Origin: Psammoneis japonica
Lineage: Eukaryota
Direction of reading: 5' to 3'
Assembly: GCA_008632985.1 (NCBI GenBank)
Contig: QPGO01000114.1
Coordinates: 1-64,000 of the forward strand
DNA: 64,000 nt
Below the pieces are notes generated by a model, which was not told the DNA's origin, ran no database searches, and saw nothing but the letters and a program-made list of their open reading frames with translations. Of this stretch, positions 2,978 through 48,005 are shown one piece after another; within the stretch, counting starts at the first letter, position 1, and each line of letters opens with the position of its first letter. The position numbers and the translations under genes were made by a program.

Positions 2978-4047
2978 GTATTCGGTGCCAGCCCATCATC
3001 TTTTCCAACGCACGAAGCGGATACTCTTCTAGGCCTCAATGACGGTGCAGGTATGGGCGCTATGGATTCAGACTTTGGAGACGATGGCAAATACCGCGAC
3101 TTTGGAGGTTTTGACGATGACGGTGGCGACGTGGGCAATGCGGGTACTCATACCACAGATCTTTCATGATAGGCCTGTGTTTCTTTGTTGGAAGAACCAC
3201 AGGTGGCACGGAGATAATATTTGCCACCGTACGCCTTCTGATACAAAACGAGAGGAGGAATCGCAATAGAAATGTTAGCAAGACACGCATCAACATTTCA
3301 CGCTACAGACGCCATCATAATCCCTTGGACACGGAATTGAATACAACCCCAATGACCATGTCAAGTGGGACATACGTTCTAGACAAAAAGCATAGTAAGT
3401 AATAATGTCGATAGTCTCGACGCTACCGGTATACACATGCATATTCTCGCCTACTCGGAAGCAATCATCTCGAATCCGTTAGTCATTTAGCGATTGAATC
3501 TACGGCCGCCTCTTCCTACTCCTGCCGACCCTCAGCCAATGAGGCCTTGCCCTATCTTGAGATCGCATTCGGTGCCAACCCAGGATCTTTTCCAATGCAT
3601 GAAGCGGACACTCTTCCAGGCCTCGATGACGATGCAGGTGTGGGCGCTGTGGATTCCGACTTTGGAGGCGATGGCAACGACCGCGACTTTATTAGAGGTT
3701 TTGGCGATGACGGTGGCGACGTGAGCAATGCGGGTGTTCACACCACGGATCTTTCACGACAGGCCTGTGTTTCTTTGTCGGAAGAATCACCAGCGGCACG
3801 TGGATAATATTTGACCACCCTGCGCTTTCTGATACAAAACGAGAGGAGGCACCTGTGATGGAATCGCAATGTAAACGGCAGCATGACACGCATCAACATT
3901 TCACGCTACAGACGCCATCACAATCACTTGGGCACGGAATTGAATACAACCCCAATGACCCTGTCAAGTGGGACACATGTTCTAGACAAAAAGCATGGTG
4001 TCTAATAATCCGTTAGTCCTTTAGCGATTGAATCTACGACCGCCTCT
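2978..4047 (+). repeat. Tandem segmental duplication: copy 1 ~2978-3512, copy 2 ~3565-4047
   Basis: Direct alignment, e.g. ttcggtgcca, gactttgga, gatgacggtggcgacgtg, ctgatacaaaacgagaggagg, ttctagacaaaaagcat and aatccgttagtc occur in both copies. Confidence 0.95.
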
Positions 4048-7530: not shown

Positions 7531-9888
7531 AGTGTCTAAGGAAATTGTAAACACAGCATGGCATAGTTTTCATTGCATAGATAATTGAAATGTTGTTTAT
7601 AGCAAATGTTACAGCTAATTAGTCACAAAGAAAGCAATGGGAATGACTCACTGGCGGTCTTTCTCTGCTGACGGTTCTGCTGTTTCCTTGTCTGCAGGAG
7701 TCTTCAACAGAGAAATAGAAGATGCATTATTTACATCTCTAAGGAGTCGGCTGAATGCCTTCCTTCCTCTTGTTTCTGGCACAGCTGTGGCCTTGATGGA
7801 TTAATGGGATCTCCTTTGAGCAAGTCACGACAGTGTGGCGCGGTGGAGGTGTCACCATGCCCAGAGTCTTGGTGGCTCAAAGCTTTACTGTAACAAATTT
7901 CCATTGGCCAATGGGCCTCGTTTCCAACTCATAGAAAGGGAAGTAAAGGAGATTCATCTATTTCTGCTCATATTCCAGCATCATACCGTCTTCCGCAACG
8001 CCGACTTGATTGAGAAGATGAGAGGCGCCAGAGCACTCGTCTCGAGCTTTTTCACCAGTGTTGAGACTAGGAACCACTTCTTTCCCACCTGAAATGTTGT
8101 ATGACGATTAGTTTCTTGGACGTGATTGACAAAGACTCGAATGCGGTGTTAATATCCCTTTTGAGGGCTTCCAGGTTATTGTTGGCGGCTGCCTTCGGAG
8201 CTGCTGGGATGCCCAAAGTGGAGTTGTCATTTCCCGTCTCCTGCATAATGTGATGGCGATGTTTTTGCACACATTGTTGGTAATGGCATATAACAGCAAT
8301 AATGCGCCGAAACATCGGCGTTGAACACATTACTTTCGACAAACGACATCGTCAACAGCAGCGGCACTCACCATTTTGTTTTGTCGCGGTGAAAGTGTGG
8401 AAAAATTAGTTTTTTGCGTTGGCCTGCAGCAGTGATATACAACATATGTACATTGATATCTGTGGTATAACGTTAATATTTCTACGCTACTATGTCGCCG
8501 AAATAAGCACCGTGGCGCAGGCGATTTTGACAAATTCGGCCGATTCCCGACGTAGAGCCACGCAGGCATGTGCCAGTGTTCCGGGAACCGGCCGTCGCGT
8601 TCCCGGAGTGAGCGATGGAGCGATGCACATGACATGGCACTGGAGGGTCATTTCTGGCTTGTAGAAATCTACACGTTGTCTGGCATTGAAATTCAAAAAG
8701 TAATGTTGAACCAACAGCGTTCCCGATCCATTCAAAAACACCGAAACATCACTCCCTCATTCATTTCGTTCGTCAAGACATGGAGAGTGTGCGGCATGGA
8801 ACCATTTCCAAACAAGCTACATTCTGTTCTTCTGTCTCTTCTCACTTGAAAGGCATGTTTACATCGAAAGCAGTGTTGATGCATCATGCATTTGCAGCAC
8901 CAGTGTGAGGATTTTTAACCTGACAATGTCATTCTCCATCTCCATCTTTCCCATGCAGACATGCAGTGCTGCACCTCAAGACACACAGCACCTCAAGAGA
9001 CTCCACAAAGTGTGTTGTGGGTTTTGTTTCTTGTTGCCTTCTGATCTGCAAATGAGGTTTGAGACACAACCTGAACAATTTTGGGTCGTGGTTGTCGGGA
9101 ACGACTTGCACCTCATCAATTTGGGGCTGTCGTCAGAAGACCGCACACTTTGTGGTGACGAGGTGTCAACGAGTTTTGCAAACTCAAGACGTGCAGCACA
9201 GTGCCTCAAGAAATGCAGCACCTCAAGACACCATCACGGAACACAGCACATTGCACCTCAAGTTCGTCTCATTTCTTGTCAAGTGGTGCATGACTGTCCT
9301 CTCTGTGCTGCAGCAAGGTTGCGGTGTGCGCTGGATGAGTTGAGACAGTGTCTCAAGAAACACAGTGCCTCAAGACACCATCACGGAGCATGGTGCATTG
9401 CACTGCGAGAAGCAAAACCATTCATTTCGTTCGTTGACGACAATGTGTTGGTGTGACCTGTTGAGTTCTCGCAATCTTTTTTAGAGCAAGTGGCACTCAT
9501 CCATGACACTGTCTGCTGAGTGTCACAGGACTGTCCGACGCGTTCCAGCCCCAGGTGGGACTCCTTGTGACATTGGGCCCGTAGAATTCTACGTGCGAGC
9601 TCCGTAGTGCGAGAATTTAATCAATGGACACATTTATCTTCAACATCAAATAAACGGCCAAGTTTGTGGTGCAATTGTGCCTCTTGCCACTCGACGTTTT
9701 TGCAACTTCGCCTGCCCCACGCGATTCTTAAGACATTGTAGAATCGCGCTGCAACAAAAAATGTCAAAAGTTGTTGGACGGATCGCTCAACAAGTGCACC
9801 GTAAAATGACACAAAATGTCGAAAAAATCACGCAGAAATCTACGTGCGCGACATGCGACGAGACTCAAAAAACTGTCGATGTCACAGT

Positions 9889-12188
9889 TCAGCAGCACGA
9901 GGTCCCACCTAGACCTGGAACGCGTCGTCCTTTGTTTTGCATGTTGAGTTCCTCGATCACCTGCTTCCGAATCGTCGCTCGCTCTTTCTCGCGACGGCCT
10001 TGCTCCAATTCTGATTCAAGTGCTTTCACCTTCTTGCTGTCTTCATCCGTCTCGCTGCGGACTTGATCCAATTCCTTTGTGACGTTGTTCAATTTTGTGC
10101 GTTCTTCTTCATGCATGACCTTGCACTCACTCTTGCNNNNNNNNNNNNNNNNNNNNNNNNNNNNNNNNNNNNNNNNNNNNNNNNNNNNNNNNNNNNNNNN
10201 NNNNNNNNNNNNNNNNNNNNNNNNNNNNNNNNNNNNNNNNNNNNNNNNNNNNNNNNNNNNNNNNNNNNNNNNNNNNNNNNNNNNNNNNNNNNNNNNNNNN
10301 NNNNNNNNNNNNNNNNNNNNNNNNNNNNNNNNNNNNNNNNNNNNNNNNNNNNNNNNNNNNNNNNNNNNNNNNNNNNNNNNNNNNNNNNNNNNNNNNNNNN
10401 NNNNNNNNNNNNNNNNNNNNNNNNGAATGTCCGCATTGAGCTTGGCAATCTCGACCTGATGGCGCTGCTGCAATTCCGAGGAAACTGCTTCAAAGGTTTC
10501 AGAAGCTTGCACTGTGCGGTTGGTGGATTGCTGGACAGGCGGAAAAGACTTGTGCGGCAGAGCTGGGTTTGTGTCCGAAAGACGTCGGCGTTTTGCTGTG
10601 TCAGTGGGTCGGCGGTCCACAGCATCCAATGCGGCAATGGCTTCATTGCCCATGTCTGAAGAAAGCCTTTTGTGTGGGTCTTGACTCTTTGTGTTCTTGT
10701 GTCGAGCACGACGAAGGCGTTCGGGGGTTAACACCTTCGCGGCCATCATGAGCGAAATGCCGCATGCGCGATTGCCATGGTTGGTGCACTGTTTCCAGTC
10801 CTTGAATTCGCACAACTGTGCAATGTGCTTCACACTCCGATGGCAGTCTTTCCCAATGGCTTGTTTGGGTTGAACTTGCAGGGCAGGTTTTTGAGATCCC
10901 ATTCGCGCTTCTGCACCTTGCTCAGCGGGCCGCAGAAAACGCGAACTTGATCAGGATGCGACCACTTCCGCAACTGATCAAAAATCTTGACAATGCAAAC
11001 AGGGTCATGGGGGTTCTCAACACATTCAATGAGCCCCTCTTTCTCGGTGCGTCCTTTCAGATTTGACAATGACAACTGGTGTGTCTTGTCGATGTCAATC
11101 ACAGAGTTGAGTCGCTGCATGCCAAAGAACTCGGATTGCTCATCATCAACAACGTCTTGATGGAATTGGTCCCACACAGCTTCGGAGACCTCTGCCACTC
11201 CACGAAAAAGGAAGCCATGAGCAAACCAAAACGCAAGCATCTCTTGACAGTGAGAGGGATCCTTGCAGGGCTTGAGCCCACCTTCCACAACTTTCACCCA
11301 AAGCTTTTTGTCGCCCTTCCAATCAAATTTTGCAGCGTTCTTCCCAACTCCAAAGGTGGGATCGCTTTCTCGCAATTCCTTCCATCTCTTCTTGCAGTTG
11401 TCGGCAAACTCTCCTTTCCCATTGAAGTCTTTCTTGAAGTCACACTTTGTGCATTTGCGATGGAAGGTTCCAAAAAGCGTCTTCATGCATTGCCCAAAAG
11501 CAGATGGTTCAAGGGCTTCTCCGGTGGGTGGGTTTTTCCAAGAGAAGAACACCAAGTCGCAACATTTCATCAGCACAAGGCGTTTCGGCTCACTCTTCTC
11601 TCCGCCAACCTCATTGTAGAATCGAAAATCCACGAGGAGACTGTCGCTCATTTCCGTCGGCACTTGCTCCAGAAGGCATTGCATCTTGTTTCCGCCTTTC
11701 TCTCGAATGGCATTGAAAAAGCGCATCTCGAGGTTGCAGGATTTTCGTTGGTGAGTCGTTTCTTGGCCTGCAGCAGCTTCCATCAATTTGCGATCCTCAT
11801 CCGAAACATTGAGGACGCTCTTGTCCTTGGCAATGACAGCTGTGGCAAGGGCGAGAGTCTGTCTGCTGGCTGTTGGCGAGGTCGTTGGAACAGTGGTTGT
11901 GCCCGAATTTGCTGCTGCGCCAGGATTGAACATTGCGGCCTCGGTGGGGTTTGCTGTGTGTGGCTGTCGGTTGACACCGACAGCAAGGTGGGCTTGCGGC
12001 TCCATCTCCACGGAAGCATTTTCTTGAGCCGCCCCCCCAAACAATTGAAACAATGCACTGGCTGCATCCAATGCATTCTGTGTCAGCACAAAGTCAACCT
12101 CTTCACCCTGTGAAAATGCGTCGTCCAAGTTTCGGCGCTCCGAAGGCGCAGTGCTTGAAGCAACAGAAATGTCGTCTCGTGTGTCCAT
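9889..12188 (-). mobile_element. Degenerate tyrosine-recombinase gene, Crypton-like DNA transposon; frameshift near 10835, crosses an assembly gap
   Basis: Catalytic-motif order: FLFRG..E (Arg I), DKT, ENPHDPVC, KPLGKTAI, TNHGNRA (HxxR), ARHKN..SQDPH (His/Tyr box with His at the expected Tyr). Confidence 0.7.
10137..10424. other. Assembly gap (288 N)
   Basis: Run of n. Confidence 1.
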
Positions 12189-12750
12189 GATGATGTTGAG
12201 TCATGATTGGAGACATCTTCAGACGTTCCGCAGGATGTGATGGAAAACAAAACAACAAAAATTAGATTGCACATTACAAAAGCGGTGCAAATCGTCTCTT
12301 CATGTTGTCGTCCTTTAACTGATGGGTTCCTGTGGAAACCGATCATTCACATGGACGCGTCCTCACCTTTGGGTGCGCCTCGGCGTCGGTCGAGCTGTGG
12401 CGCGGAAATCGCTTTGCAATTTCCACACCTTGCGATTTCCACACCACAGCTTGCCCTCCGCCTCGGCGCACCCTCAGGTTTGGCCGCTCCGGCCTCCGTG
12501 GAATTTGTGCGGGAGAACCGGTGCTCAGCCTGCCGGCTTTGCACCGGTTCCGATGACCTCAGCTGACGCTTCGGTCATTCCCGTGCAAATTCCGCGTCGG
12601 CCGGCCAGTGACTGAATGGTTTCCATGCAAAACTCATCTGCGCAGGGCCCGCGCACGCGAAATAAAAAGCAAGACCGTCCGTCACATGCACGCTGATTTG
12701 CAAATTGACACCTCGCTCTGCATCCTGCATCCGACACAAAAAGACAGAAG

Positions 12751-15700
12751 ACACACCGCACCATGGTGCACAAAATTCGGAGGCCCACCACTTTGAGTTG
12801 GCCAGGGTGGGGCTGGTTGGTCACGCACGTTTTGGTTGGATGTGATGAGCAACTGGCCATGCCCTGCAGGAAAAGCTGTTTGGTGGCGTGTGATCAAGCA
12901 GAAGCAGCCAACTTGCAGCCAAAAAGCAAAAAACACGGAGTGGGTCAAGATGTGGCAAAGTGGCATGACAACAAGCAACGAGAAGAAACCCAACTTGACT
13001 CATGAATGTGGCGCACAAATGTTGTCCAATGGCTTTGATCCTGTCTGGAAAAGCCAGCTGGTTGACAAGTGAACGGCGTTCACGTTGCTCGCCATGGTGT
13101 TGTTGTGCATCATGGTGCCGCTGTCATTGCGCGGGAAGGACTGGGATCCATTTTACCCACAGTGACTCTGTTTGTCAACAGTGTGCATTTTGCTGCATGA
13201 AGTCTGAAGACATTCTGAGAAGTGCTTCAGGCGGGTGACCCTGTTCGCACCGTCAAACAGCAATTTTTTAACTCAGATTCCACAGTTCTTTGGGGGTGTT
13301 CTGCACTTTTTTGAGTTCATCTGTGCCTCAAGCTGGAAAGAGAATCATCCATGAAGTGCCGCAAGGAAGTCAACCAGACATGGGAAGGCATCTCAAGGAT
13401 TGACTCCTGTGACCTGCAAGCAGCACTTGATGTGGACTGTGGTCTGCATGATCCCCTTTGACCCACAAGCAGCATGGCACTTTTTGCTTGAGTTCATCAT
13501 CCACAGAAGGATGTTCCTTTGCAAACAACTCAAGAGATTTGTTGAACAAGGCCTGTTTCATGTAAAACCAGAGGATTTGGGAGAGGCTGTCGACAAACGA
13601 CATGCTTCGAAAAGGGCTGCAACAGATGCAAGAAGGGCCCGCCCTTCAATTTTGCTCTTGGCATTTGTCCTCTTGACCAACAACATTCCACATTTGGGTT
13701 GGATGCAGAAGTTGTGATGGCATCAAGGATGATGCCCTTGCAGCTGCTTCTCTGCACAGGCACCGCCACGAGCAAACAGCGCCGCATCTCTGGGCAACTC
13801 ATGGCTTGAGGGAATCATTTCTCTGAAATGCTGAGTGCAACCTGCACATCCTTGGCATCCAACAACTTGTCTGTGGTGCTCAGCACGGTGTCCTCTTTTT
13901 TATCTTGATTGGAAGAGAAGCAAGAATGAGTGCCATCCATTCCTGTGCAACTTGATGCTGTGGCCACAGCACTGCTGCTTCAATCCCTGTTGAATCCCAA
14001 CCAGCAAGCACAGACAAACTCCGGCAATTGTGCCATGCTCAACCTCCAACACCTGGATCAAACCAAAGGCACCAGGACATGTCACAATGCAGCTTGCATC
14101 CCAAAGAGAAATGAACAACAAACCAAGAGGGAAGAACAAAGACAATTGACTCAAAACTGGCAATGACAAACCTGCCAATCTCAAAGTGACACCCGCTTGA
14201 AGAGAAAAGATGCTTTGACTGAAAGTGTGGCTTTCGTGCCCAGCCACCAGCCCTGAAACCAAATTGCTTGTTTCCAGCATTTGCAGCACCCGATTGTGCT
14301 GCAGGTTGGTGGCAGCTTCTTGAGATCCAATTCAACAGCTGCAACATCCAAGCCACTGGAAACAGCACCCACACGACACCACTTGGGAGGTTGGCTGTTG
14401 GAAGCAGGATCCATCGCAGTTCTGCAGCTTGAGCAACAGATGTGTTTGCCATCAAGACTGGCACAGAACAATGTCAGAGCAAAGCATGCAGACAACACCG
14501 CCATGTGTCACAATGATCTGACAAGCACATGGTTCAACAACACCCCAGCAATGCCCAGCAACCAAAATGTCTGCTGTGACTCAACAAGAGAAGCAGCATT
14601 TTTGTCGTCCATGTCAACGCACATCAGTTTGAAACCCAATGGCCTGGGGAACCAGCAAATGAATGCCAAGTCTCCACCCACCATGGTTGCAGGCAGGCCT
14701 TGAACCCAATGCATGAGCTGTGCTTTGCCAATCAGAATTAGACCGCATCCCAACAATGTTGCAGAAAGCCCCAACCTCACAGTGACAGTTGCCAGCAGTT
14801 CATCATTGGCATGACCACTGTTCATGCAGTGCTGGGCAATGGTCCAAGCCATTTGTGACAAAAACATGAGACCCTCATCTTGCGCTTGTCCCATGGCTGG
14901 CAAGAGGCAAAGTCAACAGAAATGACAAACAAACTTGATGAACCATGCCCGATCCAATTGTGAGCTTGGTTGAACTTGGCCATGTGCAGAGCAAAGCTGG
15001 GGTCTCAATGCACGCACAATGTGTGGGGAAGCCCAAATTGGACTCAGCTCCTTTTGCTTCAATGCATGTTTTTGTCAGCGTTGCTCCGTCTCCGCCATCC
15101 CTCAACAAGCTGAGAAGAAGGCACAGGTTCATTGTTCACAATGGCGCTGCAATTGTCCTTTTCTCCCCTGAGCAGTTGCATGGGCTCCTCCACCAGATGG
15201 TCAACAATTTCAGCTTCTGAAGAGAAAATTGCAGAGCAGCCCAACAAACCAAGTTTGTGGTTGCTTGGCAAGAGCAATGCACTTGGTTGTGGCAGCAAAG
15301 GCATCAATGTTGATGGTGTGTCTTCATGCAATGTCAGCCCAGAGCAGCTCTTTCTGTTGCAACAAACACTCACAATGTTCATCTTGTTTAGATCTCTCTC
15401 CCAGCATTGTGTCTTCTTCAATTTCTTCTTCTCAAAATCACTGTGCTGTCTTTGAGACTGACAAAGTCTTGATTTTCAGATCCATGATTTTGAAATTCTC
15501 CAAACAGCCAGTTGTGTCACTGAAGAACCCTGCTTTGAGATTGTGGAGTGAACCATCCACAATGATTTTGGGTCATTCAAATCAAGCTTCAACAGCTTTG
15601 ATTGAACTTCAGCAGAGTGGCAGAACAAAATTCAATGTGAAATTCCTCCAACACTTTGACGGCACTGTCCACAACAATGTTCCATCACAAATCAAACTTG

Positions 15701-15809
15701 GAAGTGATGAACAAGTTCTTTGGTGGATGCAGACATGGCATTGCTTGTCAAATTGTTGTGGCCACATGGTGGCAGGCCTCCAAATTTTACACACCATGGC
15801 GTGGTGTGT
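12751..15809. mobile_element. ~3.06-kb element bounded by 41-bp inverted repeats (possibly Tc1/mariner-like, heavily decayed)
   Basis: 12751-12791 acacaccgcaccatggtgcacaaaattcggaggcccaccac vs reverse complement of 15769-15809 acacaccacgccatggtgtgtaaaatttggaggcctgccac; 33/41 identical. No transposase recognised inside. Confidence 0.7.
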
Positions 15810-16364
15810 TTTTTTGGATCTCTCCCTCTAGCGGGAATCAGACAAAACCAAAAAAGTCTGAAAAACCATTTGCATGTAAGAGGCATTGCTTCTCAATCAA
15901 AGTTCAATCTTTTGAATGATCAACAAATTTTTCATTTGTCAAAAATGAGCACATGAACATTCATCATCAGAGCATTCAACAAGACCATCATTTCTGTGTG
16001 AGTGGTGTTGAACTCAGGTTGACAAAGTGGACATCACAGACAATGCAGTCGAGCAAACAGGGGGCAGCTGTCATGCTTCAAGTTGACTTTAGTGCCGTGT
16101 CCAACATGTGGCCAGGCGTGGCATCAATGGTTGCTGTGGACAGTTGGTTTGCATGCTGTCTGGGCAGGTGGAGGTTGATTGAATCGGGGGTCCTTTGGTG
16201 TTTGCAAAGGAGCAGACCTGTGCCATCTTCCCACTGGGGTTGCCTGGAGCTGATTTGAGAGGCGGGAATGCAGGATCCCTGGAGACAACGGTGGGTTGCC
16301 CGAACTGTGGCGACACTCATCCTTGCATTCATTGGCAATTTTGGTGGGAAAAAAGTGTGCATTG

Positions 16365-16740
16365 TCCTGATTGTCACAGAAAATCTGTGTCAATTTGAAA
16401 ATCTGTGAGATTGTTTCAGGGACCGAATGAAATCTGCAAGATTTTAGAACGGAAAATCTGGAATCTGCCCCGTCTGTCTTCCCCCCTCAGTTGCACAAAT
16501 GTGCACAGGGTGCACGTGTGCCGTGCCGGGAGGACCACTTTTGCTGCGCTGGGCCTTCAGAGGGGTTCTTCAAAGATTGCATGATTTGACAAATTTTGGA
16601 AAAAACTGGCTCCAGTTTTAGCAGAACAATTGAAAATCTGTGCTTTTTGAAAATCTGCAACTGTTTCTGAGGACCCCTTGAAAATCTGCAAGAAATCTGA
16701 ATCCCAAATCTGTGCCACAGATTTTCTGTGACAATCAGGG
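16365..16740. mobile_element. MITE (~376 bp) with 24-bp perfect TIR and internal aaatctg repeats
   Basis: cctgattgtcacagaaaatctgtg (16366-16389) is the reverse complement of 16716-16739. Flanked by TG on the left and CA on the right, compatible with a mutated TA target-site duplication. Confidence 0.75.
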
Positions 16741-19303
16741 CAAATGTTTGACAACAACATCAATGCATCCTCGTGAAAACACTTTTCTGCTTTCACTTGC
16801 AGTGTGGTCCAAGAGTGATTCCCGCTGTGGGGATGGATCATTTTCTTTTGTGTGGCCTGGGTGACAAGTGGCAAGAGTGACAATTTTCAAATCTCCGCAT
16901 GACAGACGGACACACTTGTTGTAGAAGACATGGCCTGCCTGCCTGTCTGCCCACCTTTGTGTCTCAGATGTCTGCATGAGCCAGGGGTCATCACACACTC
17001 AGCCCTGGATGCACTTGAGCCGCTGGCCTGAAATGTTGATGTCATGCGCACATTTTGATCCAGCCGCTGTGAAAAGCCAATGACTCCGGCAGCAACAAGC
17101 AAGTTTGTTCTCAACAGGACATTGCAGCACTCTCATGTGTTCTTTCCTTCATTGTGACATGCAACTTTTTTGTTTGAAATCAATCCAAAACATCTTGTTT
17201 TCCACTTGCAAATGTGCAGGACCATTGCAGAATCCCACATGTTGCCAGTCCAAGTTGCAACTCATTCGAAGTTTCAGTTGCCCAAACATCCCCATTTCAA
17301 CGGATTTGGGTCAAGGTGAAGTTGTTCAATTGTTTTGAAAAGAAGTGCAGCAAAATTGGGACAAGAGCACTGCTGTTGATGCCTCCGATCATTGGATGGA
17401 TGCCGGAACATTCATTGTGAGGTGAGCACTCGAGGGCAAGTTTCGCGGCATTTTCTTTTGTTTTGCTCTCAAAACAAATTGTTCTCAACATCTTTGTTGT
17501 TGGGGTGAAGTTTTCTTGCCTGTTCTTTTGGAAAGAATGAGAATCAGAAGAGCAGCAAAGCGCAGACAAAAATTTTGTTGTGCAAATCAAACGTCTGAGG
17601 AGCCACTCCCCACCAGCAAGTGGCACCACTTTCTAAGACAGACCAACACAAGAGCCCTGGACAACCAGTTCGGATGTGTGTTGCATTGACAACAGATCTC
17701 TAAGAGGCACTGCATGCCTTGGAGACTTTCTTCTGCTGCTTTGGCTGGACAAGCACTGTCCGTCGTGACCTCCAGCCCAACAGCTTCCGGCATCTCAAGC
17801 ACTTGTTGCACTGTGCTTCCAGCTCCAATCACCCACAATCATTAAAATTTGGGACTCATGACAAGACACAGTGAATTTGATGACAACATGTGACAAATCT
17901 TCTTGCAGCAGTCCAAGTGGATTTGGTTGTCAAGATGAGCAGCTTGCAAACAACTTGAAGGCGGGTCTGTGTTTGTTTCTGTTCACATGAAAGCACCCAT
18001 GCAAAAGCACCCTAAAAAGCCAGACACCTCAGCCCATCATCTTCCATGAACACACAAGTGAACAGATGTGATTGCATCCAATGCACTTGGACTTGAACAT
18101 TGGAAATGGCGTTGCCGGTTGATGCACCTGTGGCAGAAATTTTGGCGGAGAGCAAAAAAGTGTCAGCAAAAGTGCGACAACTGACAGTTCGAGCGGCAAT
18201 CGCCTGATGACATCCTTCCCACAGGATCAATCAAGACATTCCTTGTGGGCTCACCAATCAAATTAAAACATTGACGAAGTTGCAACCGAGCAACCAACAT
18301 TGTCCACTGCATGTTCTTGCCACAGAAAAGCATGAAGCAAGGCGGTGCTTGACCAACCAGCACGAATGTCAGGTGACTTCATTCACACCAAATCTTTCAT
18401 TGAATTGTTCAATGAATGTGTGGACCTTTCATGAACTTCAGCTGCAGAGGCATTTGCAACCTTCAATTGGGATGGAGGCAACAACAGCAAAAATGCACGA
18501 GAAACAGTGATGTGAAAAATAAAAGCATCTGAAGGAAAAATTCGAGTGGCAATCGCTGCGCCACATGATGCTTTCAATGGGGTTTAGAAAGACTCTGCAG
18601 ATGCAATTGCCACTTGATTGTCAACATTGATGCCACCACAAACAATTTGCTCACCTTGGTTGAAGTCTTTTTTCTCGTGCAAAAAGCATGAGAATTGTGG
18701 GGTGGCAGACAAACGTGCAAAAAAATGTTTCAGTCAAACATGGCATCTTTTGATTGAATGTCTCCGGCCATTTGCCCAACTCAGACAGCTTTGCTTAAAG
18801 CTGGACTGTCTGAGTTGGGCACACAGGGACATTGAACCACCACACTTGGTTTTGTGACTGACTTTTAAGCTGCTTGTGAGTTGAAACAAGTGCAAGATTT
18901 GGCGGGTGACATCACTCCCTCCACGAGGAGGCAGCACGTTGCAGGCGTTGTTGTCATCATTTTTTTCATGCTCTGCACTTGCTGGCAACTGCATTTCCAT
19001 GCAATGCAATGTCTTGCAATGACAAGGAAAATGCCCCGATTGCTTGTTGAGCTGGCAAGTTTTTCTTTTTTGGTGTGTGCCACGTTTCAACCAGCAACAG
19101 CACTCAGTTGCAACAGTCTGTTGCACACATGATTGTGCTGTTCTTGTGCTCCACTGTCTTTGCTTTTTTGGCATCAGACGACCCAAAAAGTTCTCATGTT
19201 GAAGTGCTGGAAGATGAGCATCCCCCAAAAGAGGTGAAAGTGGAAAAAAGACTTGTGGTGATGGCAAGGCTTTTCATGCTGGCAGACTGGGTGCCATTTT
19301 CTG

Positions 19304-22300
19304 TTGTTGCATGCCGTGCTTGCACTTGCATCATTCAGTGACCACGCTCCCCTTGCCATTGTGGTGCAGCAGCTGGTGCAAAAGTGGAAAAAAACTTGCA
19401 ATGATGGCAAAGTGATGAGACTTTTGCACAAAGAGCATGCAGAAAAAAGACTGGATGTGTCAAAGCCCCCCATCATGACCACCGTGATGATGAAGCAACT
19501 CCTGGGGCTGTTTCCCAATGTTCCTCTCCCCTGCACTGCTGCTGCGATGCTTGAGTGCAACAATCCAACACAGCAACAGAAGGATGGGCCAAAATGTCAT
19601 CGCTGCCCACCTTTCCCAGTTTGCAGTTTCACTGAGACCCTGCAGGATCTCTTCACCAAGCCAGTGTTCTGTGATCTTTCCAAGTTGCAGGTCAATCCGA
19701 GTGACATTTGGTCACCTCATGTGCCACCCCCCACTGACGGTTGTTTGGATTCCAGTGCTGGCTGGGCCAAGGATGTTGAGATGTCATTCCCGGATTGTCC
19801 TGGTGACTGGCAATTGTCCACTCAAAGTCAAGACATGGGTGATGGCAAGTGGCAACAATGTTGCTCCAATGCCAACAAAACAGCCTCTGATTTTCATGTT
19901 CACCTTGTCAATCACTCGGACAAGACCAGAACCAATGCGGTCAATCCTCATGGGATGGAGCCTGCCAATGTGCTCACTTGCCATGATTCAAGAGAATGCA
20001 CACTGTGGCTGTTGTTGTTGTTGTTGTTGGCATCCACTTGGATTCACACCCAATTTGGACAAGAAAGACAAGCTTGGGCACCTTGTTGTTGACAACTGTC
20101 GCCGCATTCTCAAGGAGGTTCTCCGTGGTCTGCTTCATTGCCAGGCAAATCCACCCATTGTTTGTGCAACAATGGGCACTCAATGCCACCATGTCAGAGC
20201 CACAACACATTGCAACTCCCTGTTGGGGGTCATCCTCAATCAAGAATGCATTTGTGGAAGAGTCATGAGCCAAAGCAAGACCAAGAGGTTGTCTCACAAC
20301 TGCCATGTGCCCTCCCACCTGTCTGATGATCCCCTCCATGTCTGCCAATTCTTTGGCCAAGCTTTCATTGAGTTGCTCACTGTTGATGCATTGGGTCTGG
20401 ATCCAGAGGATGACAACAGCGAAAAAAAGGCTGAGACTGAGCCAGCTTCCTCCCTCATTCGCCGAATGACCACATGCTCCAAAACATTGAGGAAAGTGTT
20501 TGGACAGCATGCGGTGGACAATGCTTGCTTTCCACTTGACATGGGTGACAACCCACGCGGTGCATTCGGCATGACCATTGCTGATGTGATGCAGGTGTTG
20601 GAGGTGGGTGTTGTCCCTCAAATGATGGAGGTGACAATGGGAGAGATGTCCGCCAAACAGAAAGAGGAACACGACCGGATTGCATCTGAATTGTTCTGCA
20701 CATCCCATTGTCGTCCAGGTCAGAGACGTGACCATTCACAAATTCGAGTCAATGGGGGACTTTTCACACTCAGTCAACTTGCGTGTGATGAGAAGATGGG
20801 CAAGCTTCTTGCACTTGCAGTCATTGGCCACACACATGCTGGCAGAAAACTGCTGGAAAAAAGGTGCAATCCATCCTTTGACAGCAAAAAGAAAAAGACG
20901 GCTGATGGCTTTAAAGGAAAGAAGCAACAAGAAGAACAGTTCGCCAAATCATCAGAAAGTGAACCCAATGATGAGGACCCTGATCCTGCTGAACCATCAA
21001 ATGAACCAACTGGCAAAACAAACACAACCCCAGTTGATGAGAATGCACCTGTTGCATTTCCTAAAGAGGCATGGTGTGATGTCACCTGCGATCCATCCGA
21101 TTTCCATCACCGCAACCATGTGATGCAACAGATGCATCATCACAGCCTTTCTGAATTTTGGGAACCATTTCCAATCAACTGGATGACCGCTGCTTTTTGT
21201 CATGCCAGAAGATTGCATGGGATGAAACCAAGTCATTGAAGATGGAAACAACACGCTGTTGAGACTTCACCTGATCAATTGTTGATGCCCGGACTGCATG
21301 GTCTTGTCGCTGGTTTGGTGGATGATTGGAACAACTTTGCAAGGTGTGCGGACAGACGGCCCTTTCTTCTCACAAAGACAAAATTGCCAAGCACTGTCAT
21401 TCATGCTGAAACAGAAAACAAACTTCCGGAATCCTTCATGAAGATCACAGATGATGAAATGACAGCCAAAAAATCCGTCGATTGTGGAGTTGATGAGTTG
21501 CTGGACTTGTTGCATCACATGCTGCTTTTTCATTCATTTTGTCTCCATGGCAAGGGACTCTGTGGAAAAACAGGAAAGGTGGATTTCAAGTGCCGCGTCA
21601 TTCTGCTCATGTTCAAGATCAATTCATGCCTTCGTCACGCAAGGAACACTTGCTTGTTCCGAGCCGCCAAGTTCCACTCTGTGCTGCATCTCATTGTCAA
21701 CTCTTTCCTTTGTGGCCAGATTGCAAATTTCTCTGCCATGATTGGAGAGAGTCACCTGAAGTTCTGGGCCAAGCTTCTGGCAAAAACTTGCCAGGTTGCA
21801 TTGGGTGCAGACAATTGCTTGGACCAACTTGTTGTTTGTTTGCATGACATGGCAGTTCTTGAGAAGGCACACAGCCTTCTCATCCCTCCCACTGTTGGTC
21901 AGGTGAGCGTCTTCCTCTGAAGAAAAATTGATGCACCCCTTGTTTGTTGTGAACAGAACTGCCTGAACTTGCTGCCAGTGTTCAGGTGGCAACAAGGTCC
22001 TGGTCGTCCCAGAAACTGCAGAGTTGGACTCTGCCCTGCTGCAGAACTGTCCGCCAAGCACAATGAAGTTGTTGTTTGCTTGGAGTTTGCCACACCAGAG
22101 AAGGGGATCTTACAACAACAACAGGTTGCGGTGTGACACACCCAGGGTCTTGTACGAAGAGGGAGCTGGTCAGAAGAAAAGGCACCCTTTTTTGCTCCGT
22201 GGTTTTGTGTCAGCTGATGATGAAACAACGCCACTTGCCGCAGGACAGTGATGCAAGGAACAGACAAAGATGTTGTGTGACATGTCTTCCAACAGTGTGG

Positions 22301-22520
22301 TCAAGTGCTGGGAACTTGAAACAACAACTGTTGGTCGTGGCAGAGATTCTCAGACGATCCCAAAATTTTGGCATGCCAGCAGAGATGCAATTGCAGCGGG
22401 GGGGTTTCTGTCCTGGTTCCTGACAACTGCAATGGAGACAACGTTGAAGTGGTGAGATGCTCTGTCTCATTGTTGTTTGTTGCAGACAGACACAATGACT
22501 GGCCAAATCATTTCCTGTCC
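19304..22520 (+). mobile_element. Degenerate Plavaka-type (CACTA/CMC-related) transposase, several frameshifts
   Basis: Motifs HSDKT...MEP; VDNACFPLDMGDNPRG..G...DVMQ...VG; AKFHSVLH.....CGQIANFSAMIGESHLKFWAK.LAKTCQ; C-terminal FVADRHNDWPNHF. These resemble Plavaka transposase motifs as I recall them (KfH..H...fG...N....gE..lK..aK). Confidence 0.65.
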
Positions 22521-22669
22521 AACAAAGTGCTCCAGCTTCACTCAGACAAATGCAGGAAGCAAGAAAAAGGTGAACGACAACGCACCTTGGGAAAAAGGAA
22601 ATGTTCGCAAATGTTTTTTAAGCATTGTGAGTGCTCCAATGAGCCAGCTGCAATGGCATGTCAACCCAT

Positions 22670-24900
22670 CTAAAAGCATCTGTTGGATCCACTCCTTGTT
22701 GCTCCTTCTGTCAGCAACTGGAGCGAGCAGCAAAAAATTGCCAACTTGTCTAAAAGCGCTGGTTGGTCCTGCTCAGTGTTGATTCTTGAAATTTGAACAA
22801 ACCCCCTCTGCTTCGTCAAGTCATGCTTTGACTTGCCACAAGAGCAAACATCGACATGAGTTGACAAATCACACCATTGATTGCCAATGAAATGTCCAAT
22901 CCTGTGCTCCAATTTGTCAGGCCACAAACCACTTGTCGACTTGTTCGAATGCTCCAAAGAGCAAATGGGTGACACACCATGCTCGCTGGATGCAAGGCAG
23001 CATGGATCCTTGTGCAACATGTTGTTCATTGATCGATGTTCCCTGCAGCCTGGTTGGCCACATTTGGCCCAAGTTGGTCTTCTGCCATTTTTTCTTGCAA
23101 CTTCAATTGCATTTTGAACAACTTCCCTTGCCTTCAATGAGGAGATCCATTTGCCTCTTGTGTGTGCTTCCTTCCCCACAACACACATGTTGACAAAGAG
23201 ACAAAATCCAGAATTGCCCTTGGATGTGTGCGCCTCTGCGGCATTTCAAGGGGAGGGTTTGTCCCATCATGGAAGCCAATTGCCTGACCTTGTGCTCGGC
23301 AACCACTGCTTGGGCAAGTTGTTCTTCCTGGCTTTGCAACAAAACAAAAGTTCCCTGGCAGATTTGTGACTTCCATCAGAACATCAAATTGACTGGAAAT
23401 GAGTGCACAGCAGATTTGCATCTCCTTCATGTTGGTCAATGAAGGATCCATGCGTTGAAATCTCTGTAATGTCAAGCATGTCATTCCGCTCACATCGCCG
23501 TTGTTCTTCAATCATCACTTCATCATCAACACCAACTGGTGACGCAACAATCCCATTTCATTTTTCTGCAACAAAGTCTTCACAGATTCTTGGTTTTTGG
23601 GTTTCACAGATTCCCTCAATGCAGCCAGAGCAACAAGAGGTGCACCGTTGAATTCCACACCCACAAATGCAGCAAATTTGTCTCCGTGGTGGAAAGCAAT
23701 GCATCCCTCGCAGTGAAGCATGAAATTGAACCAGCTGTGGAAAATTGATCCCAGGAGAAGGTCTCTGTCTGAGCCTTTGTCAACAAGCAATCATGACATG
23801 CCCTTGTGATTGCCGCTGTCAAATTGCTGAAGGTGACCCCCAACACATTGGGCAGCGCACTGAATGTCATCTTTGTTCTCCATTGTGGAAAGGTTGAAGC
23901 TGTCTGTCTGTGATTCCAGTTGTTCCAACAGGGCATTTGCATGTTCACAATCCGTCTTGAACAGTGGCTTTCGCAACTGGATTCCGACAATCTCTCTGTT
24001 GCATGACAGATGGTCAAAAGCTGTGATTGTGATGGGCACAGAATGCCTTTTCAGCTCATCCACCAAATCATTGCCAATGTTGTAATCCCGCCAATCATCA
24101 ATGAACATGACACCATTGCTGACATCATCCAAGAGGAGTTCCCACTTGTTTTTCAAGTCAAAGTGTTTTGGAGGGAAGCTGGTCATGTGAGATCCTGCCT
24201 CATTGAGTTTTTTAGCACACCTTGCAATTGTTCTGGGCAACCCAACCAGGCTTGGCATTTCTCAGACAACCTTTGTCTTTCTTCCAGCATTTCTCCTTGG
24301 GGAGACCTTTGTGTTCCCTGCAAAGCTTTTTGGCACACAATGTGAACCAAAATCACGGTCAGTTGCAAAATCCACTGTCTGCGCCAGGCAGAGAGATCTT
24401 TTTCCTTTTCTGTTGATCCAGGCTTTGCAACACCTGATCCACCATTGCGGCTCCAACCTTGAGCAATCACTCCATTCACACCAAAATCTTTGGCAACAGT
24501 CCCTCGAAATGAACGGTCAAACTTTGCAGAAAGTAAAAACTCTTGTGCCAACCCACTGCTCAGCCCCTGTTCAACAATCTTTCTGAGCTGCATCAACAAA
24601 CCCAATCCAAGAATTCTTTTGTCAAACTTGCGTGACCTGAACATGCAATTGTTGGCAATTCCTTCCATTGTGTCAAGGTGTTCAAAACAAATGGATGAGT
24701 TGGATCGCCTGCCTGGTGTGGGTGATTGGCGTCCGAACGCAGAATCTCTGCCTTGCATTGAAGGTGCCCACACATTTGCTCCAAAGCATTTGGACCCATT
24801 GCACCATGTGCTGTTGCACACAGCTTGAATTGGATGACAAGGGAACACCTCATTCCCTCCCTGCCTGGTTTTTCAACAAAAAGAATTTCATTGTCAAGTG
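22670..24900 (-). pseudogene. Decayed unknown coding sequence
   Basis: Chain of protein-like minus-strand ORF pieces (24183-24848, 23791-24258, 23134-23511, 22670-23188). No family recognised. Confidence 0.3.
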
Positions 24901-24999
24901 CATCAGACAGCTTGTTGGACTTCCGGCGAGGTTGTTTCAGGCAGAATTTTTGCTTGACTTCTCTTTCATTGTTCAAATGTTGCCAATGCTTTTGGGGCG

Positions 25000-26620: not shown

Positions 26621-27509
26621 TTTGACTTTGAGCTTGGCTTTCATTCTAGGAGACATCAACATGGATTTTGTCAGGCAAGGAACAGATGGGAAATGGAAGC
26701 AGCACGCTCAATGCAATCCCTCACCTCAACAGCCACAGATCTTTTGCATTTTTTGGTTTGGAAGTGGCGCACATTGATCATTTTTCTGCGTGCCTTTTTT
26801 TCTTTTGTTGAGCCAGCTCCAGGAGGGCTGCCTCCTTGAAAGCCAATCTGGCACAGCTTGGATCTGCTGGCCACTTTGCAAAGTCACCGAGGTGGTTTGG
26901 ATTGTGTGCATTGCTCTTCCCACTGCTCTCGAACATGAAGATTTTTGCATCAAACATCATCAGCATGATGCCACGGATGAAGTGGTCTGTCAAACCCCCT
27001 TTTTAAGTGACAAATGAAGGTGACCGCGTTTGTTCACCCAATGTGTGGGAGAATGACACAGCCTCAATTTTGTGTCAAGGCTGTTCTCCACACTGAACGG
27101 GGCCAGATGCACTGGGGGGGGGGGGGGGCAACGGCCAGATGGAATGTTGGCCAATGCTGTTTTGTGACATGGCAGCGGCAAAGCAATGCCAGGTTGAGTC
27201 AGGTGGAATGTCATCAGGAAAGAAGTGTGATGTGTTGGACTGAAATGAGATTCGTCTGTTCCATTTTGGTGATGTGGCATGACAGGCAAGGGATTGGGCA
27301 GCATTCTGTGGGGTGGGATCATGTTGAGGTTGTTGTTTCACACAGGGAATGACATGGCTGCAGAGGACAAGAGATGGCGTCACCCCAACATCATCCGTTC
27401 ACTGCTCAACATGTGTTGATCAGCAACTTGGACCAGATTTGGGAGACTGTGGTTTGCTGCGGGAGATGTGCTTCATGTCACAACAATGTGCAGGCTTTTG
27501 TTCAGTGCA

Positions 27510-27742
27510 TTGACAAAAAAGTGACACCAAATTGATCTGTCAACAGATGGTGCATCAACAAAAAAGCAATGCCAAATTGTTCTTTTGACACAGACATGTG
27601 CAACAACAAAAAAGTGATGCCAAATTGATCTGTCAACAGACAGGCGCATCAATGAAAAAGTGATGCCAGGTTGATCTGTCAACATGTGGGTGTGCAACAA
27701 AAAAGTGATGCCAAATTGATCTGTTGACAGATGGGTGCATCA
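27510..27742. repeat. Tandem repeat, ~45-bp unit, ~5 copies
   Basis: aaaaaagtgatgccaaattgatctgtcaacaga-like unit recurs at ~27515, 27560, 27608, 27655 and 27699. Confidence 0.85.
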
Positions 27743-40470: not shown

Positions 40471-40499
40471 TGTCTCCAGCATTGAACTACCGGGTGCGA

Positions 40500-47634: not shown

Positions 47635-47635
47635 T

Positions 47636-47937: not shown

Positions 47938-48005
47938 CAGTTTTTATGCCAAACAAGAACTGGCACATTGTGCTGCTGGAAGATGTCAACCTGCACAATT
48001 CTTCC

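What the first reader, a model, noticed from the sequence alone, without database searches (positions are those of the whole stretch)
2978..4047. Tandem duplication with one-sided TA loss
At least 12 TA sites of copy 1 are CA or TG in copy 2: gtatt/gcatt, gatac/gacac, tctag/tccag, ggtat/ggtgt, gctat/gctgt, ggtac/ggtgt, catac/cacac, gatag/gacag, cgtac/cctgc, cataa/cacaa, catac/cacat, catag/catgg. I saw no clean reverse case. CpG transitions occur in both copies, and several TA sites survive in both. One copy was therefore partially edited, on both strands, while its neighbour ~590 bp away was spared.
Basis: seen in the sequence. Interest (0 to 1): 0.85.

Follow-up and report, generated by a model that had tools for sequence, protein, structure and literature searches.

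The report
TA-erasing hypermutation in a diatom
One of two adjacent repeat copies in a diatom has turned about half of its TA steps into CA or TG, and the same window holds 40 kb of DNA almost wholly stripped of TA, the footprint of a TA-specific hypermutation so far reported only in one unrelated alga.

Summary
The two copies (2978-3564, 3565-4047) align over 436 columns with 52 mismatches. At 14 sites copy 1 has TA where copy 2 has CA (7) or TG (7). The one reverse case sits beside an indel (binomial p about 0.001). All other transitions are balanced, 11:10.

The window is from a diatom, and 40.3 of its 64 kb are almost free of TA: 125 TA against about 1,600 expected, rho(TA) 0.047 against 0.61 elsewhere, with matching CA/TG excess.

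In those domains the direction is TA to CA/TG. Conserved tyrosines (TAY) read His or Cys in a methionine-synthase fragment (5 of 5) and a transposase relic (2 of 2). Tandem-array copies carry CA or TG at the same column. Paralogues that straddle domain borders differ 11:0.

This matches the TpA-to-TpG/CpA hypermutation seen live in Bigelowiella natans (bioRxiv 2026). My seven literature searches found no diatom report.

Copy 2 is therefore most likely a lightly edited patch. Its polarity is inferred from this context, because I could not obtain an outgroup for the locus. The enzyme is unknown.

The parts
2978..3564 (.). Copy 1 of the tandem duplication. It is TA-rich (rho TA 0.80-0.89) and lies just after the stop (2967-2969) of a + strand ORF. 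A contig of run X2 covers 2707-3328 exactly.
3565..4047 (.). Copy 2 of the tandem duplication. It has 14 (15 with the edge site) TA-to-CA/TG differences from copy 1, rho TA 0.42-0.48, rho CA/TG 1.33-1.41 and normal CpG. I read it as a lightly edited patch.
8917..33468 (.). TA-free domain 1. It is interrupted by a TA-normal MITE-like island (9482-9910) and an N run (10137-10424). It holds 68 TA in 23 kb from 10425 on. CpG is near normal up to about 13 kb and depleted beyond.
9536..9927 (.). MITE-like element with 26-nt terminal inverted repeats. It is TA-normal inside the TA-free domain, and the summed k-mer depth of its bin in run X1 is about 139,000 against about 60 for single-copy DNA.
19494..21236 (+). 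Tyr-free relic of a transposase-like ORF (0 Y, 31 H and 34 C in 581 aa). It has 286 homologues, and some homologues give weak Plavaka-transposase matches. Two of 2 conserved-Tyr columns read C or H here.
38560..52074 (.). TA-free domain 2, with 54 TA in 13.5 kb.
40037..40482 (+). Frameshifted fragment of the B12-dependent methionine synthase activation domain, closest to diatom MetH. Five of 5 Tyr conserved in at least 7 of 8 diatom MetH read His (3) or Cys (2).
41254..42268 (.). 90-bp tandem array (11 copies) inside TA-free DNA, with columns that are dimorphic CA/TG and hold no CG or TA.
46987..47938 (+). Decayed chimeric copy of part of the DUF4116 gene (partner 62192-62885) and of 52632-52892. 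The partners' TA read CA/TG here at 11 sites, with 0 in reverse. The partners' CG read CA/TG at 27 sites, with 5 in reverse.
53601..56549 (.). TA-free domain 3 (3 TA in 2.9 kb, CpG almost gone), including a 179-185-bp tandem array at 53643-55340 with CA/TG-dimorphic columns.

Best explanation
The window comes from a diatom whose genome carries a regional, TpA-specific hypermutation. In targeted stretches TA becomes TG or CA, that is A-to-G on one strand or the other, until TA is almost extinct. Gene-bearing DNA next to these stretches keeps a normal TA content.

After the ~590-bp tandem duplication at 2978-4047 arose, copy 2 took a light dose of this process: 14-15 of about 24-26 TA were converted, in both directions. 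Copy 1 lost none or one.

Three things are shown. The one-sided, TA-specific, two-strand pattern at the locus is real. TA-free domains exist in the same window. In those domains the direction is TA loss.

Three things are inferred. One is that copy 2, and not copy 1, is the changed copy. Another is that the same process did it. The third is the chemistry, which by analogy with the proposal for Bigelowiella natans is most simply deamination of adenine after T in DNA (A to inosine, read as G) by an ADAT2/TadA-like enzyme directed to silenced chromatin.
For: At the locus:
- The TA(copy 1)/CA-TG(copy 2) split is 14:1, p = 0.00098. The other transitions are 11:10.
- The products are 7 CA and 7 TG, interleaved. 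Both strands were therefore hit at the DNA level.
- Copy 2 gained 13 CA+TG while losing 12 TA.
- Copy 1's TA density matches its non-coding surroundings, with 8-13 TA per 200 bp across 3001-3600. Copy 2 is a local dip, with 2 TA in 3601-3800.

Context in the window:
- 40.3 kb hold 125 TA. Rho TA is 0.047 against 0.61, rho CA/TG 1.65 against 1.16, and CA (4122) equals TG (4200).
- The distribution of rho TA is bimodal.
- By hand, the deficits of about 1,500 TA and about 1,340 CG compare with an excess of about 2,490 CA+TG.

Direction inside the TA-free domains:
- Five of 5 Tyr conserved in at least 7 of 8 diatom MetH are His or Cys in the fragment 40037-40482. Against human and E. coli MetH it is 2 of 3.
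- Two of 2 conserved-Tyr columns of the transposase family are C or H. The ORF has 0 Tyr in 581 aa against a median of 2.66% in 150 homologues.
- Array copies are CA or TG at the same column with no CG (3 column pairs of the 90-bp array, 8 of the 185-bp array). The change therefore happened independently in each copy after amplification.
- Paralogues across domain borders differ 11:0.

Not an assembly artefact: contigs of run X1 at k-mer depth 58-74 match 13078-16242, 16704-17516 and 18894-19451 with 0 differences.

Same signature in independent public data: the Tyr-free protein P0199 has H (4) or C (1) at all 5 Tyr of a 69-70% identical metagenome relative.

Precedent: in B. natans mutation-accumulation lines, 230 of the 231 mutations in two regions were A-to-G or T-to-C, and all of these fell on TpA. 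The process was episodic and had sharp regional limits (preprint 10.64898/2026.01.13.699255; Results and Discussion read).
Against: - There is no outgroup for the locus itself, so TA gain in copy 1 is not excluded by direct evidence.
- Copy 2's rho TA (0.42-0.48) lies within the range of ordinary coding DNA in the normal domains, for example the OTCase gene at 0.41-0.44. Copy 1's value (0.8-0.9) is at the high end.
- The patch is about 0.5 kb, far smaller than the TA-free domains (2.9-24.6 kb), and lies 5 kb from the nearest one.
- Copy 2 shows no CpG loss, although many TA-free stretches do.
- The tetranucleotide context of lost and kept TA in copy 2 does not reproduce the context bias of surviving TA in the TA-free domains. 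Losses were 6/9 for RTAY, 6/11 for mixed and 2/3 for YTAR. The numbers are too small to count either way.
- The pattern was picked post hoc by a reader scanning 64 kb.
- Nothing in the window identifies an enzyme or a targeting signal.
Confidence: 0.66

Rival explanations
1. The direction is RIP-like. Copy 1 gained TA through C-to-T changes at CpA/TpG (cytosine deamination, as in fungal repeat-induced point mutation), and copy 2 keeps the ancestral CA/TG.
For: The same 14:1 pattern fits formally. Under this reading 14 of 78 CA/TG sites changed, against 11 of 151 other C/G sites (my arithmetic). C-to-T is the commonest spontaneous change. RID-related DNMT4 genes are widespread in diatoms and their function is unknown (PMC9998398, passages read).
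Against: Nothing in the window shows TA enrichment or CA/TG depletion. Normal domains have rho TA 0.61 and rho CA/TG 1.16, and copy 1 fails the classical RIP indices (TpA/ApT 0.67-0.70). The only regional process documented here runs the other way. RIP normally hits both copies (textbook knowledge, not from a call). CpG-type changes are not in excess in copy 1 (3:6).
Confidence: 0.12
2. Copy 2 was not edited in place. It was overwritten by gene conversion from, or inserted as, a copy of the same repeat family that had been partly TA-edited elsewhere in the genome.
For: Summed contig depth over 2669-4669 in run X1 is 220-409, against about 60 for single-copy stretches. This hints at further copies of the unit in the genome. 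Such an origin would explain why a 0.5-kb patch differs from its surroundings.
Against: Part of that depth is cross-laying of the two copies at the 85% threshold, plus overlapping contigs. No third copy lies in the window. The two copies are co-linear, with shared tail and spacer, as expected of a simple local duplication.
Confidence: 0.1
3. The asymmetry is chance or ordinary constraint. It is a sampling accident among 36 transitions, or copy 2 is under selection (for example as coding sequence) that disfavours TA.
For: The pattern was found post hoc. Both copies keep one reading frame open for about 62 codons, and two of the three indels are multiples of three. Coding DNA in this window has low TA.
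Against: The binomial p is 0.001, and the bias is confined to the TA context (Fisher p = 0.011). In that frame I count by hand 5 synonymous against 16 non-synonymous differences, which is neutral. The low-TA coding stretch next door (4001-5000) has no CA/TG excess (rho 1.07), whereas copy 2 has one (1.33-1.41).
Confidence: 0.08
4. It is a sequencing or assembly artefact. A modified base at TA in some chromatin is misread as C or G, so the TA-free DNA and copy 2's states do not exist as sequence.
For: The run libraries are not on record, and X1 may be the very data the assembly was made from.
Against: Exact 31-mer contigs at depth 58-74 reproduce the TA-free DNA. A strand-wise misreading would give strand-coherent runs of all-TG or all-CA, or leave about a quarter of sites as TA and a quarter as CG. 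Instead CA and TG alternate within a few bases and CG is not raised. Paralogues differ at many non-TA sites too. A Tyr-free relative exists in unrelated public data.
Confidence: 0.03

Closest known systems
TpA-targeted hypermutation of integrated giant-virus and virophage DNA in the chlorarachniophyte Bigelowiella natans (Mettrop et al., bioRxiv 10.64898/2026.01.13.699255, April 2026; abstract, Results and Discussion read)
   Same: Both show only TpA-to-TpG/CpA changes on both strands, regional confinement with sharp limits, and long-term TpA depletion coupled to CpA+TpG enrichment. In both, the affected sequences are degraded and mostly unannotatable, with DDE-transposase and reverse-transcriptase signatures. 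Partial states exist in B. natans too (its NCLDV region has rho TpA 0.45, like copy 2 here).
   Different: The host here is a diatom (Stramenopila, not Rhizaria). Depletion is near saturation (rho 0.01-0.1 over 40 of 64 kb, against a 5% cut-off of 0.43 there). The recognisable content is a transposase relic, tandem arrays and fragments of host genes (MetH, DUF4116, PhyH), and I found no viral hallmark gene. Much of the edited DNA has also lost CpG. No live mutation data exist here. A sub-kilobase patch that separates two adjacent repeat copies is not described there.
Repeat-induced point mutation (RIP) of ascomycete fungi
   Same: Both are dinucleotide-specific transition hypermutation of non-genic or repeated DNA. 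Both act on both strands, destroy reading frames and leave compositionally distinct domains beside normal genes.
   Different: The chemistry and direction are opposite: RIP turns CpA into TpA and enriches TA. RIP is triggered by duplication and hits both copies. Here a ~2,300-fold-depth MITE, a 98% inverted repeat and a 178-bp array are unedited, and only one of the two tandem copies changed.
ADAR A-to-I hyperediting of double-stranded RNA, and APOBEC editing of retroelements in animals
   Same: The editing is deaminase-type and leaves clustered transitions. ADAR prefers a 5' U, that is the UA step (as stated in the preprint's Discussion).
   Different: Those systems act on RNA or on single-stranded cDNA, and reach the genome only through retro-copies, marking one strand. 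Here CA and TG products are interleaved and equal in number (4122 against 4200). Tandem arrays and a local duplication are affected.
Methylation-driven CpG decay in transposons (5mC deamination)
   Same: It also feeds the CA/TG pool. It is present in part of the TA-free DNA (rho CG 0.2-0.45).
   Different: It cannot remove TA. TA-free stretches with near-normal CpG exist (10.4-13 kb and 41-46 kb), and copy 2 has rho CG of about 1.0.

Membership tests
TpA-to-TpG/CpA regional hypermutation (B. natans type) | Changes are A-to-G / T-to-C transitions falling on TpA, giving TpG and CpA | tested here: met
   At the locus, 14 TA/CA-TG sites against 1, with other transitions 11:10. In the domains, conserved Tyr reads His or Cys at 5/5 and 2/2 columns, arrays show CA/TG dimorphic columns and paralogues differ 11:0. 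Polarity at the locus itself is inferred.
TpA-to-TpG/CpA regional hypermutation (B. natans type) | [quoted passage not shown] | tested here: met
   By my count from the table, 30 of 64 windows pass both cut-offs, in three runs (13-33 kb, 45-52 kb, 54-57 kb). My rho formula may differ slightly from theirs. Copy 2 alone gives rho TA 0.42 and CA/TG 1.41. It meets the first cut-off only.
TpA-to-TpG/CpA regional hypermutation (B. natans type) | Confined to defined regions, with the neighbouring genome normal | tested here: met
   Rho TA is bimodal. Borders lie at about 8917, 33469, 38560, 52075, 53601 and 56550. The OTCase and DUF4116 genes lie in TA-normal DNA.
TpA-to-TpG/CpA regional hypermutation (B. 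natans type) | Targets are of viral or other foreign origin | tested here: inconclusive
   There is a Plavaka-like transposase relic, but the homologues' Pfam matches are below the curated cut-off and occur in 3 of 15. Pfam over 59 + 150 ORFs otherwise finds only host-type fragments (MetH, DUF4116, PhyH, weak LRR) and no viral hallmark.
TpA-to-TpG/CpA regional hypermutation (B. natans type) | Measured de novo rate about 1000-fold above background, in only some lineages | not testable with these tools
   This needs mutation-accumulation or population data for this diatom.
TpA-to-TpG/CpA regional hypermutation (B. natans type) | An ADAT2/TadA-like DNA adenine deaminase as agent (a hypothesis in the preprint too) | not testable with these tools
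   No whole genome is held for the window, and I saw no deaminase gene in the window.
Fungal RIP | C-to-T at CpA, giving TpA enrichment and CpA/TpG depletion | tested here: not met
   The edited domains show the opposite (rho TA 0.047, rho CA/TG 1.65). Copy 1 has TpA/ApT 0.67-0.70, below the usual RIP threshold of 0.89. That threshold is recalled, not from a call.
Fungal RIP | Triggered by sequence duplication; both copies mutated | tested here: not met
   The split is one-sided, 14:1. A highly repeated MITE and other repeats in the window are unedited.
ADAR-type RNA hyperediting fixed through retro-copies | A-to-G clusters on one strand of a retro-copied sequence | tested here: not met
   The 7 CA and 7 TG products are interleaved at the locus. 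CA is 4122 and TG 4200 in the domains. Tandem arrays are affected copy by copy.

The most novel reading that the evidence does not exclude
Diatoms share with chlorarachniophytes a chromatin-directed DNA-editing defence that removes TpA (probably adenine deamination after T). It would then be old within the SAR eukaryotes and could shape a large part of some diatom genomes. It can be aimed with sub-kilobase precision, here at the one copy of a tandem duplicate that lies between the 3' ends of two convergent genes. That would point to guidance by transcription or small RNA, and not by repetition as such.
Probability: 0.3. Interest if true: 0.9.

Novelty: new member of a known kind. Interest (0 to 1): 0.75.

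Why it matters
TpA-specific DNA hypermutation is known from a single 2026 preprint on a single species, and its enzyme and targeting are unknown.

A second, unrelated host would show that the process is not a curiosity of one alga, all the more because here it has run to near completion over most of a 64-kb window. It offers end-state and intermediate-state material for working out the rules, such as borders, context and the relation to CpG methylation.

It also matters for diatom genomics. TA-free DNA has no TAA or TAG stops and no Tyr codons, so it throws up long false ORFs and hides the origin of transposons and pseudogenes.

Diatoms include transformable model species. If they share the system, the hypothesised DNA adenine deaminase becomes testable. 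A natural DNA adenine deaminase would also interest the base-editing field.

Tried and rejected
Outgroup for the locus:
- No whole genome is held.
- nhmmer and sensitive blastn of both copies against the window found no third copy.
- An exact or degenerate 30-mer from the best-conserved core found 0 matches in metagenome contigs.
- Read laying shows extra summed depth over the locus, but the other contigs' sequences are not given.
- Polarity at the locus therefore stays inferred.

Coding constraint: rejected. By hand I count 5 synonymous against 16 non-synonymous differences in the shared frame.

Base-modification or assembly artefact: rejected (see the rivals).

A strand rule, 'the A followed by a pyrimidine is the one edited', is not supported:
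- In CpG-normal TA-free DNA the two product classes gain equally (+5.6 against +5.1 per kb).
- Only 2 of 5 informative paralogue events fit.
- By my own count from the table, 3 of the 6 mixed-context sites at the locus fit.
- The apparent bias came from the CpG-poor stretches.

Linking the locus to the domains by NTAN context gave numbers too small to use.

Polarity from the DUF4116 motif is ambiguous. F, H and Y all occur at that position in the intact gene.

Origin of the TA-free DNA:
- ORF 10833-12200 has no homologues.
- The protein atlas gave no usable hit for 19494-21236.
- Rfam gave 0 hits in the window.
- The first MetH sub-fragment gave no PDB hit.

Fetching DNA of the Tyr-free public relatives:
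- The search with P0199 returned two 69%-identical relatives that are not TA-free (rho 0.34-0.38), not P0199's own contig.

Expression:
- No RNA holder is listed.
- Run X2 behaves like cDNA, with GT..AG joints at 400-486 and 2377-2473.
- X2 gave no cover over copy 2 and little over TA-free DNA. This is not evidence of silence.

Earlier notes of this scan hold nothing on this genome. The one 'TpA depletion' note concerns a phage and did not bear on this case.

They list the B. natans clusters and do not affect the claims made here.

Full report
THE OBSERVATION

The tandem duplication is real. The repeat finder reports five co-linear direct-repeat families offset by 587-603 nt and one by 534 nt. 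A gapped local alignment pairs 2980-3416 with 3567-4018.

Over 436 aligned columns there are 52 mismatches (88.1% identity), 36 transitions and 16 transversions.

In the strict alignment 14 TA of copy 1 are CA (7) or TG (7) in copy 2, 9 TA are shared and 1 changed by transversions. A further TA/CA pair sits at the very edge of the homology. The only reverse case (3104/3694) touches the 3-bp indel and depends on how the gap is placed.

The 14:1 split gives p = 0.00098. All remaining transitions are balanced 11:10, and CpG-type differences are 3:6. The asymmetry is therefore real, confined to the TA step, and involves both strands.

THE ORGANISM

No whole genome is held for the window.

An intact ornithine carbamoyltransferase gene (35428-36462) is 71-80% identical to 120 listed homologues. 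Every named one is from a diatom. A DUF4116-repeat gene (61483-63114) is present. A methionine-synthase fragment is closest to Cyclotella, Skeletonema, Mediolabrus, Thalassiosira, Corethron and Phaeodactylum proteins.

I take the organism to be a diatom that is not itself in the protein collection.

The window as a whole has rho(TA) of only 0.26, and the reason is regional.

Three domains, 8917-33468, 38560-52074 and 53601-56549, make up 40.3 kb once a small island and an N run are excluded. Together they hold 125 TA. Rho TA is 0.047, rho CA/TG 1.65 and rho CG 0.45. The other 23.0 kb have rho TA 0.61, rho CA/TG 1.16 and rho CG 1.00.

One stretch of 2,046 bp has no TA at all. The distribution of rho TA in 500-bp windows is bimodal, and the intermediates lie mostly at borders or in coding DNA.

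By hand, about 1,500 TA and about 1,340 CG are missing and about 2,490 CA+TG are in excess. CA (4122) equals TG (4200). TA-free stretches with near-normal CpG exist (10.4-13 kb and 41-46 kb). TA loss and CpG loss are therefore separate processes.

IS THE TA-FREE DNA REAL SEQUENCE?

Contigs of public run X1, at 31-mer depth 58-74, match 13078-14748, 14729-16242, 16704-17516 and 18894-19451 without a single difference.

The run may be the assembly's own source, so this is not independent of the sample. It does rule out a polishing or consensus artefact.

A strand-wise misreading of a modified base would give strand-coherent blocks, or leave TA and create CG. Instead CA and TG alternate within a few bases.

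An unrelated public protein, P0199, has no Tyr. At all 5 Tyr of a 69-70% identical metagenome relative it reads His (4) or Cys (1).

DIRECTION IN THE TA-FREE DOMAINS

Four independent lines say that TA was lost.

- Methionine synthase. A frameshifted fragment at 40037-40482 (Pfam E = 8e-16) was aligned with eight diatom methionine synthases. It reads His (3) or Cys (2) at all 5 positions in the well-aligned blocks where at least 7 of 8 have Tyr. It also shows Ile-to-Thr (ACA), Ile-to-Met (ATG) and Val-to-Ala (GCA) changes of the kind expected from ATA and GTA. Against human and E. coli enzymes 2 of 3 shared Tyr are His or Cys.
- Transposase relic. ORF 19494-21236 has 286 homologues at E <= 0.001. 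Three of 15 tested homologues give weak Plavaka-transposase matches below Pfam's cut-off. The 150 listed homologues have a median of 2.66% Tyr. The ORF itself has 0 Tyr, 31 His and 34 Cys in 581 residues. At both columns where at least 60% of 17 homologues have Tyr it reads Cys or His.
- Tandem arrays. In the 90-bp array (11 copies) and the 179-185-bp array (8 copies), 3 and 8 column pairs respectively are CA in some copies and TG in others, with no CG or TA. That pattern needs an ancestral TA converted independently in each copy after the array grew.
- Paralogues. Where a sequence has one copy in TA-free DNA and one in normal DNA, the normal copy's TA is CA/TG in the other at 11 sites, with 0 in reverse. 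Its CG is CA/TG at 27 sites, with 5 in reverse.

WHAT IS TARGETED

Pfam over 59 ORFs of at least 150 aa and 150 ORFs of 90-149 aa finds only a few things in TA-free DNA: the MetH fragment, a DUF4116 remnant, a PhyH fragment and a weak LRR match. I found no viral hallmark gene.

The content is thus a transposon relic, tandem arrays and decayed pieces of host genes. Many diverged copies exist elsewhere in the genome, because 4,360 X1 contigs laid on the first 20 kb, most at 85-99% likeness.

Repetition as such is not the trigger:
- A MITE-like element (9536-9927, 26-nt terminal inverted repeats, bin depth about 139,000) sits TA-normal inside a TA-free domain.
- The 178-bp array at 6.6-7.5 kb is unedited.
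- The 98% inverted repeat at 59.6/61.3 kb lies in TA-normal DNA.

Surviving TA are strongly biased in context. Of 125, 67 are YTAR and 3 are RTAY, against 165 and 301 of 980 in normal DNA. This means either a context preference of the process or later re-creation of TA. A simple per-strand rule did not hold.

WHAT IS KNOWN

Seven full-text searches found one matching report, bioRxiv 10.64898/2026.01.13.699255. I read its abstract, Results and Discussion.

In mutation-accumulation lines of the chlorarachniophyte Bigelowiella natans, 231 of 302 nuclear mutations fell in an integrated giant-virus region and a virophage region. 230 of these were A-to-G or T-to-C, and all of those were on TpA. The rate was about 6e-7 per site per generation, and only some lines were affected. 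[quoted passage not shown] The authors propose an ADAT2-like adenine deaminase. The paper does not mention diatoms.

Applying its window cut-offs to the table, I count 30 of the 64 one-kb windows here as passing, in three runs. Values (rho TA 0.01-0.1) are far beyond its 5% cut-off of 0.43.

Fungal RIP is the nearest textbook analogue but runs the opposite way. RID-related DNMT4 genes are widespread in diatoms with unknown function (PMC9998398, passages read). That is a lead for the rival reading only.

BACK TO THE FINDING

The locus lies in TA-normal DNA, 5 kb from the nearest TA-free domain.

Copy 1 follows the stop of a + strand ORF (2967-2969), and a contig of run X2 covers 2707-3328 exactly. 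X2 shows GT..AG joints and so behaves like cDNA. Copy 2 lies between that point and the end (4101) of a 428-codon ORF on the other strand.

Copy 1's TA density matches its non-coding neighbourhood. Copy 2 is a local dip with a matching CA/TG gain. The low-TA coding stretch to its right has no CA/TG gain.

A TA-specific, two-strand, regionally limited TA-to-CA/TG process is demonstrably at work in this genome, and I saw no sign of a TA-creating one. The most economical reading is therefore that copy 2 received a light dose of it: about 55-60% of its TA, against 95% or more in the domains at a similar background divergence of about 10%.

I put this at about two in three. The remainder is divided among TA gain in copy 1, import of an already edited copy, chance and artefact. 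The decisive test, an outgroup for the locus, could not be run with what is held.

VERDICT

The larger finding is that a diatom genome carries extensive, near-saturated TpA-erasing hypermutation. I found only one earlier report of this kind of process, in one unrelated alga. That makes it a new member of a very recently described kind. The mechanism is still open.

Noticed in passing
window 8917-33468, 38560-52074, 53601-56549: These 40.3 kb are almost free of TA (125 TA, rho 0.047) with CA/TG excess. The borders against TA-normal gene-bearing DNA are sharp. This became the core of the report.
   Followed up: yes
window 9536-9927: A MITE-like element with 26-nt terminal inverted repeats. It is TA-normal although embedded in TA-free DNA. 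The summed k-mer depth of its bin in run X1 is about 139,000 against about 60 for single-copy DNA. The tiny run X3 covers only this stretch.
   Followed up: partly
window 13001-33468, 49000-52074, 53601-56549: Part of the TA-free DNA has also lost CpG (rho 0.01-0.5). ACG and TCG are more depleted (0.23 and 0.21 of normal) than GCG and CCG (0.40 and 0.35). Other TA-free stretches (10.4-13 kb, 41-46 kb) keep near-normal CpG.
   Followed up: partly
TA-free domains, all 125 surviving TA: Surviving TA are biased to YTAR contexts. TTAA is 6.5-fold and CTAA/TTAG 3.2-fold over their share in normal DNA. ATAT is 0 and ATAC/GTAT 0.05. This could be a context preference of the process or later re-creation of TA. 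It is unresolved.
   Followed up: partly
window 19494-21236 (+): A long open frame with no tyrosine and with many relatives in public data. It is probably a Plavaka/KDZ-type DNA-transposon transposase relic. TA-free DNA lacks TAA and TAG stops, so long overlapping false ORFs abound on both strands.
   Followed up: yes
proteins P0199 (JGI), P0270 and its cluster (ENA/NCBI, 1 Tyr in 1200 aa): Relatives of that transposase in unrelated public metagenome assemblies are also almost Tyr-free. P0199 shows Tyr-to-His/Cys and Arg-to-Cys/His against a 69-70% identical relative. The same editing signature therefore seems to exist in other organisms or samples.
   Followed up: partly
window 40037-40482 (+) and 28470-28883 (+): Decayed fragments of host-type genes lie inside TA-poor DNA. 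One is the methionine synthase activation domain, with a frameshift. The other is a phytanoyl-CoA dioxygenase-like piece (E = 1e-4).
   Followed up: partly
window 46987-47938 vs 62192-62885 and 52632-52892: The TA-free copy is a chimera of two sequences that lie 10 kb apart in TA-normal DNA (part of the DUF4116 gene and a stretch near an RsmB-like fragment). This suggests gene-fragment capture by a mobile element.
   Followed up: no
window 59639-59722 / 61272-61355: An 84-nt inverted repeat, 98% complementary with arms 1,549 nt apart, lies in TA-normal DNA. Its right arm ends 128 nt upstream of the DUF4116 gene's start.
   Followed up: no
window 2757-2802 / 2877-2922; 6563-7528; 27505-27742; 40928-42278: Further tandem repeats are present: a 120-nt-spaced pair just upstream of copy 1, a 178-bp array in normal DNA, a 45/91-bp array, and a 90-bp array (higher-order 273/455 bp) in TA-free DNA.
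   Followed up: partly
window 10137-10424: A run of 288 N. It is either an assembly gap or withheld sequence.
   Followed up: no
runs X1-X3, window 400-486 and 2377-2473: Run X2 is labelled 'DNA?' but shows GT..AG joints (85 and 95 nt skipped) that X1 lacks, so it behaves like cDNA. It implies a + strand gene with short introns running through 1-3328.
   Followed up: no
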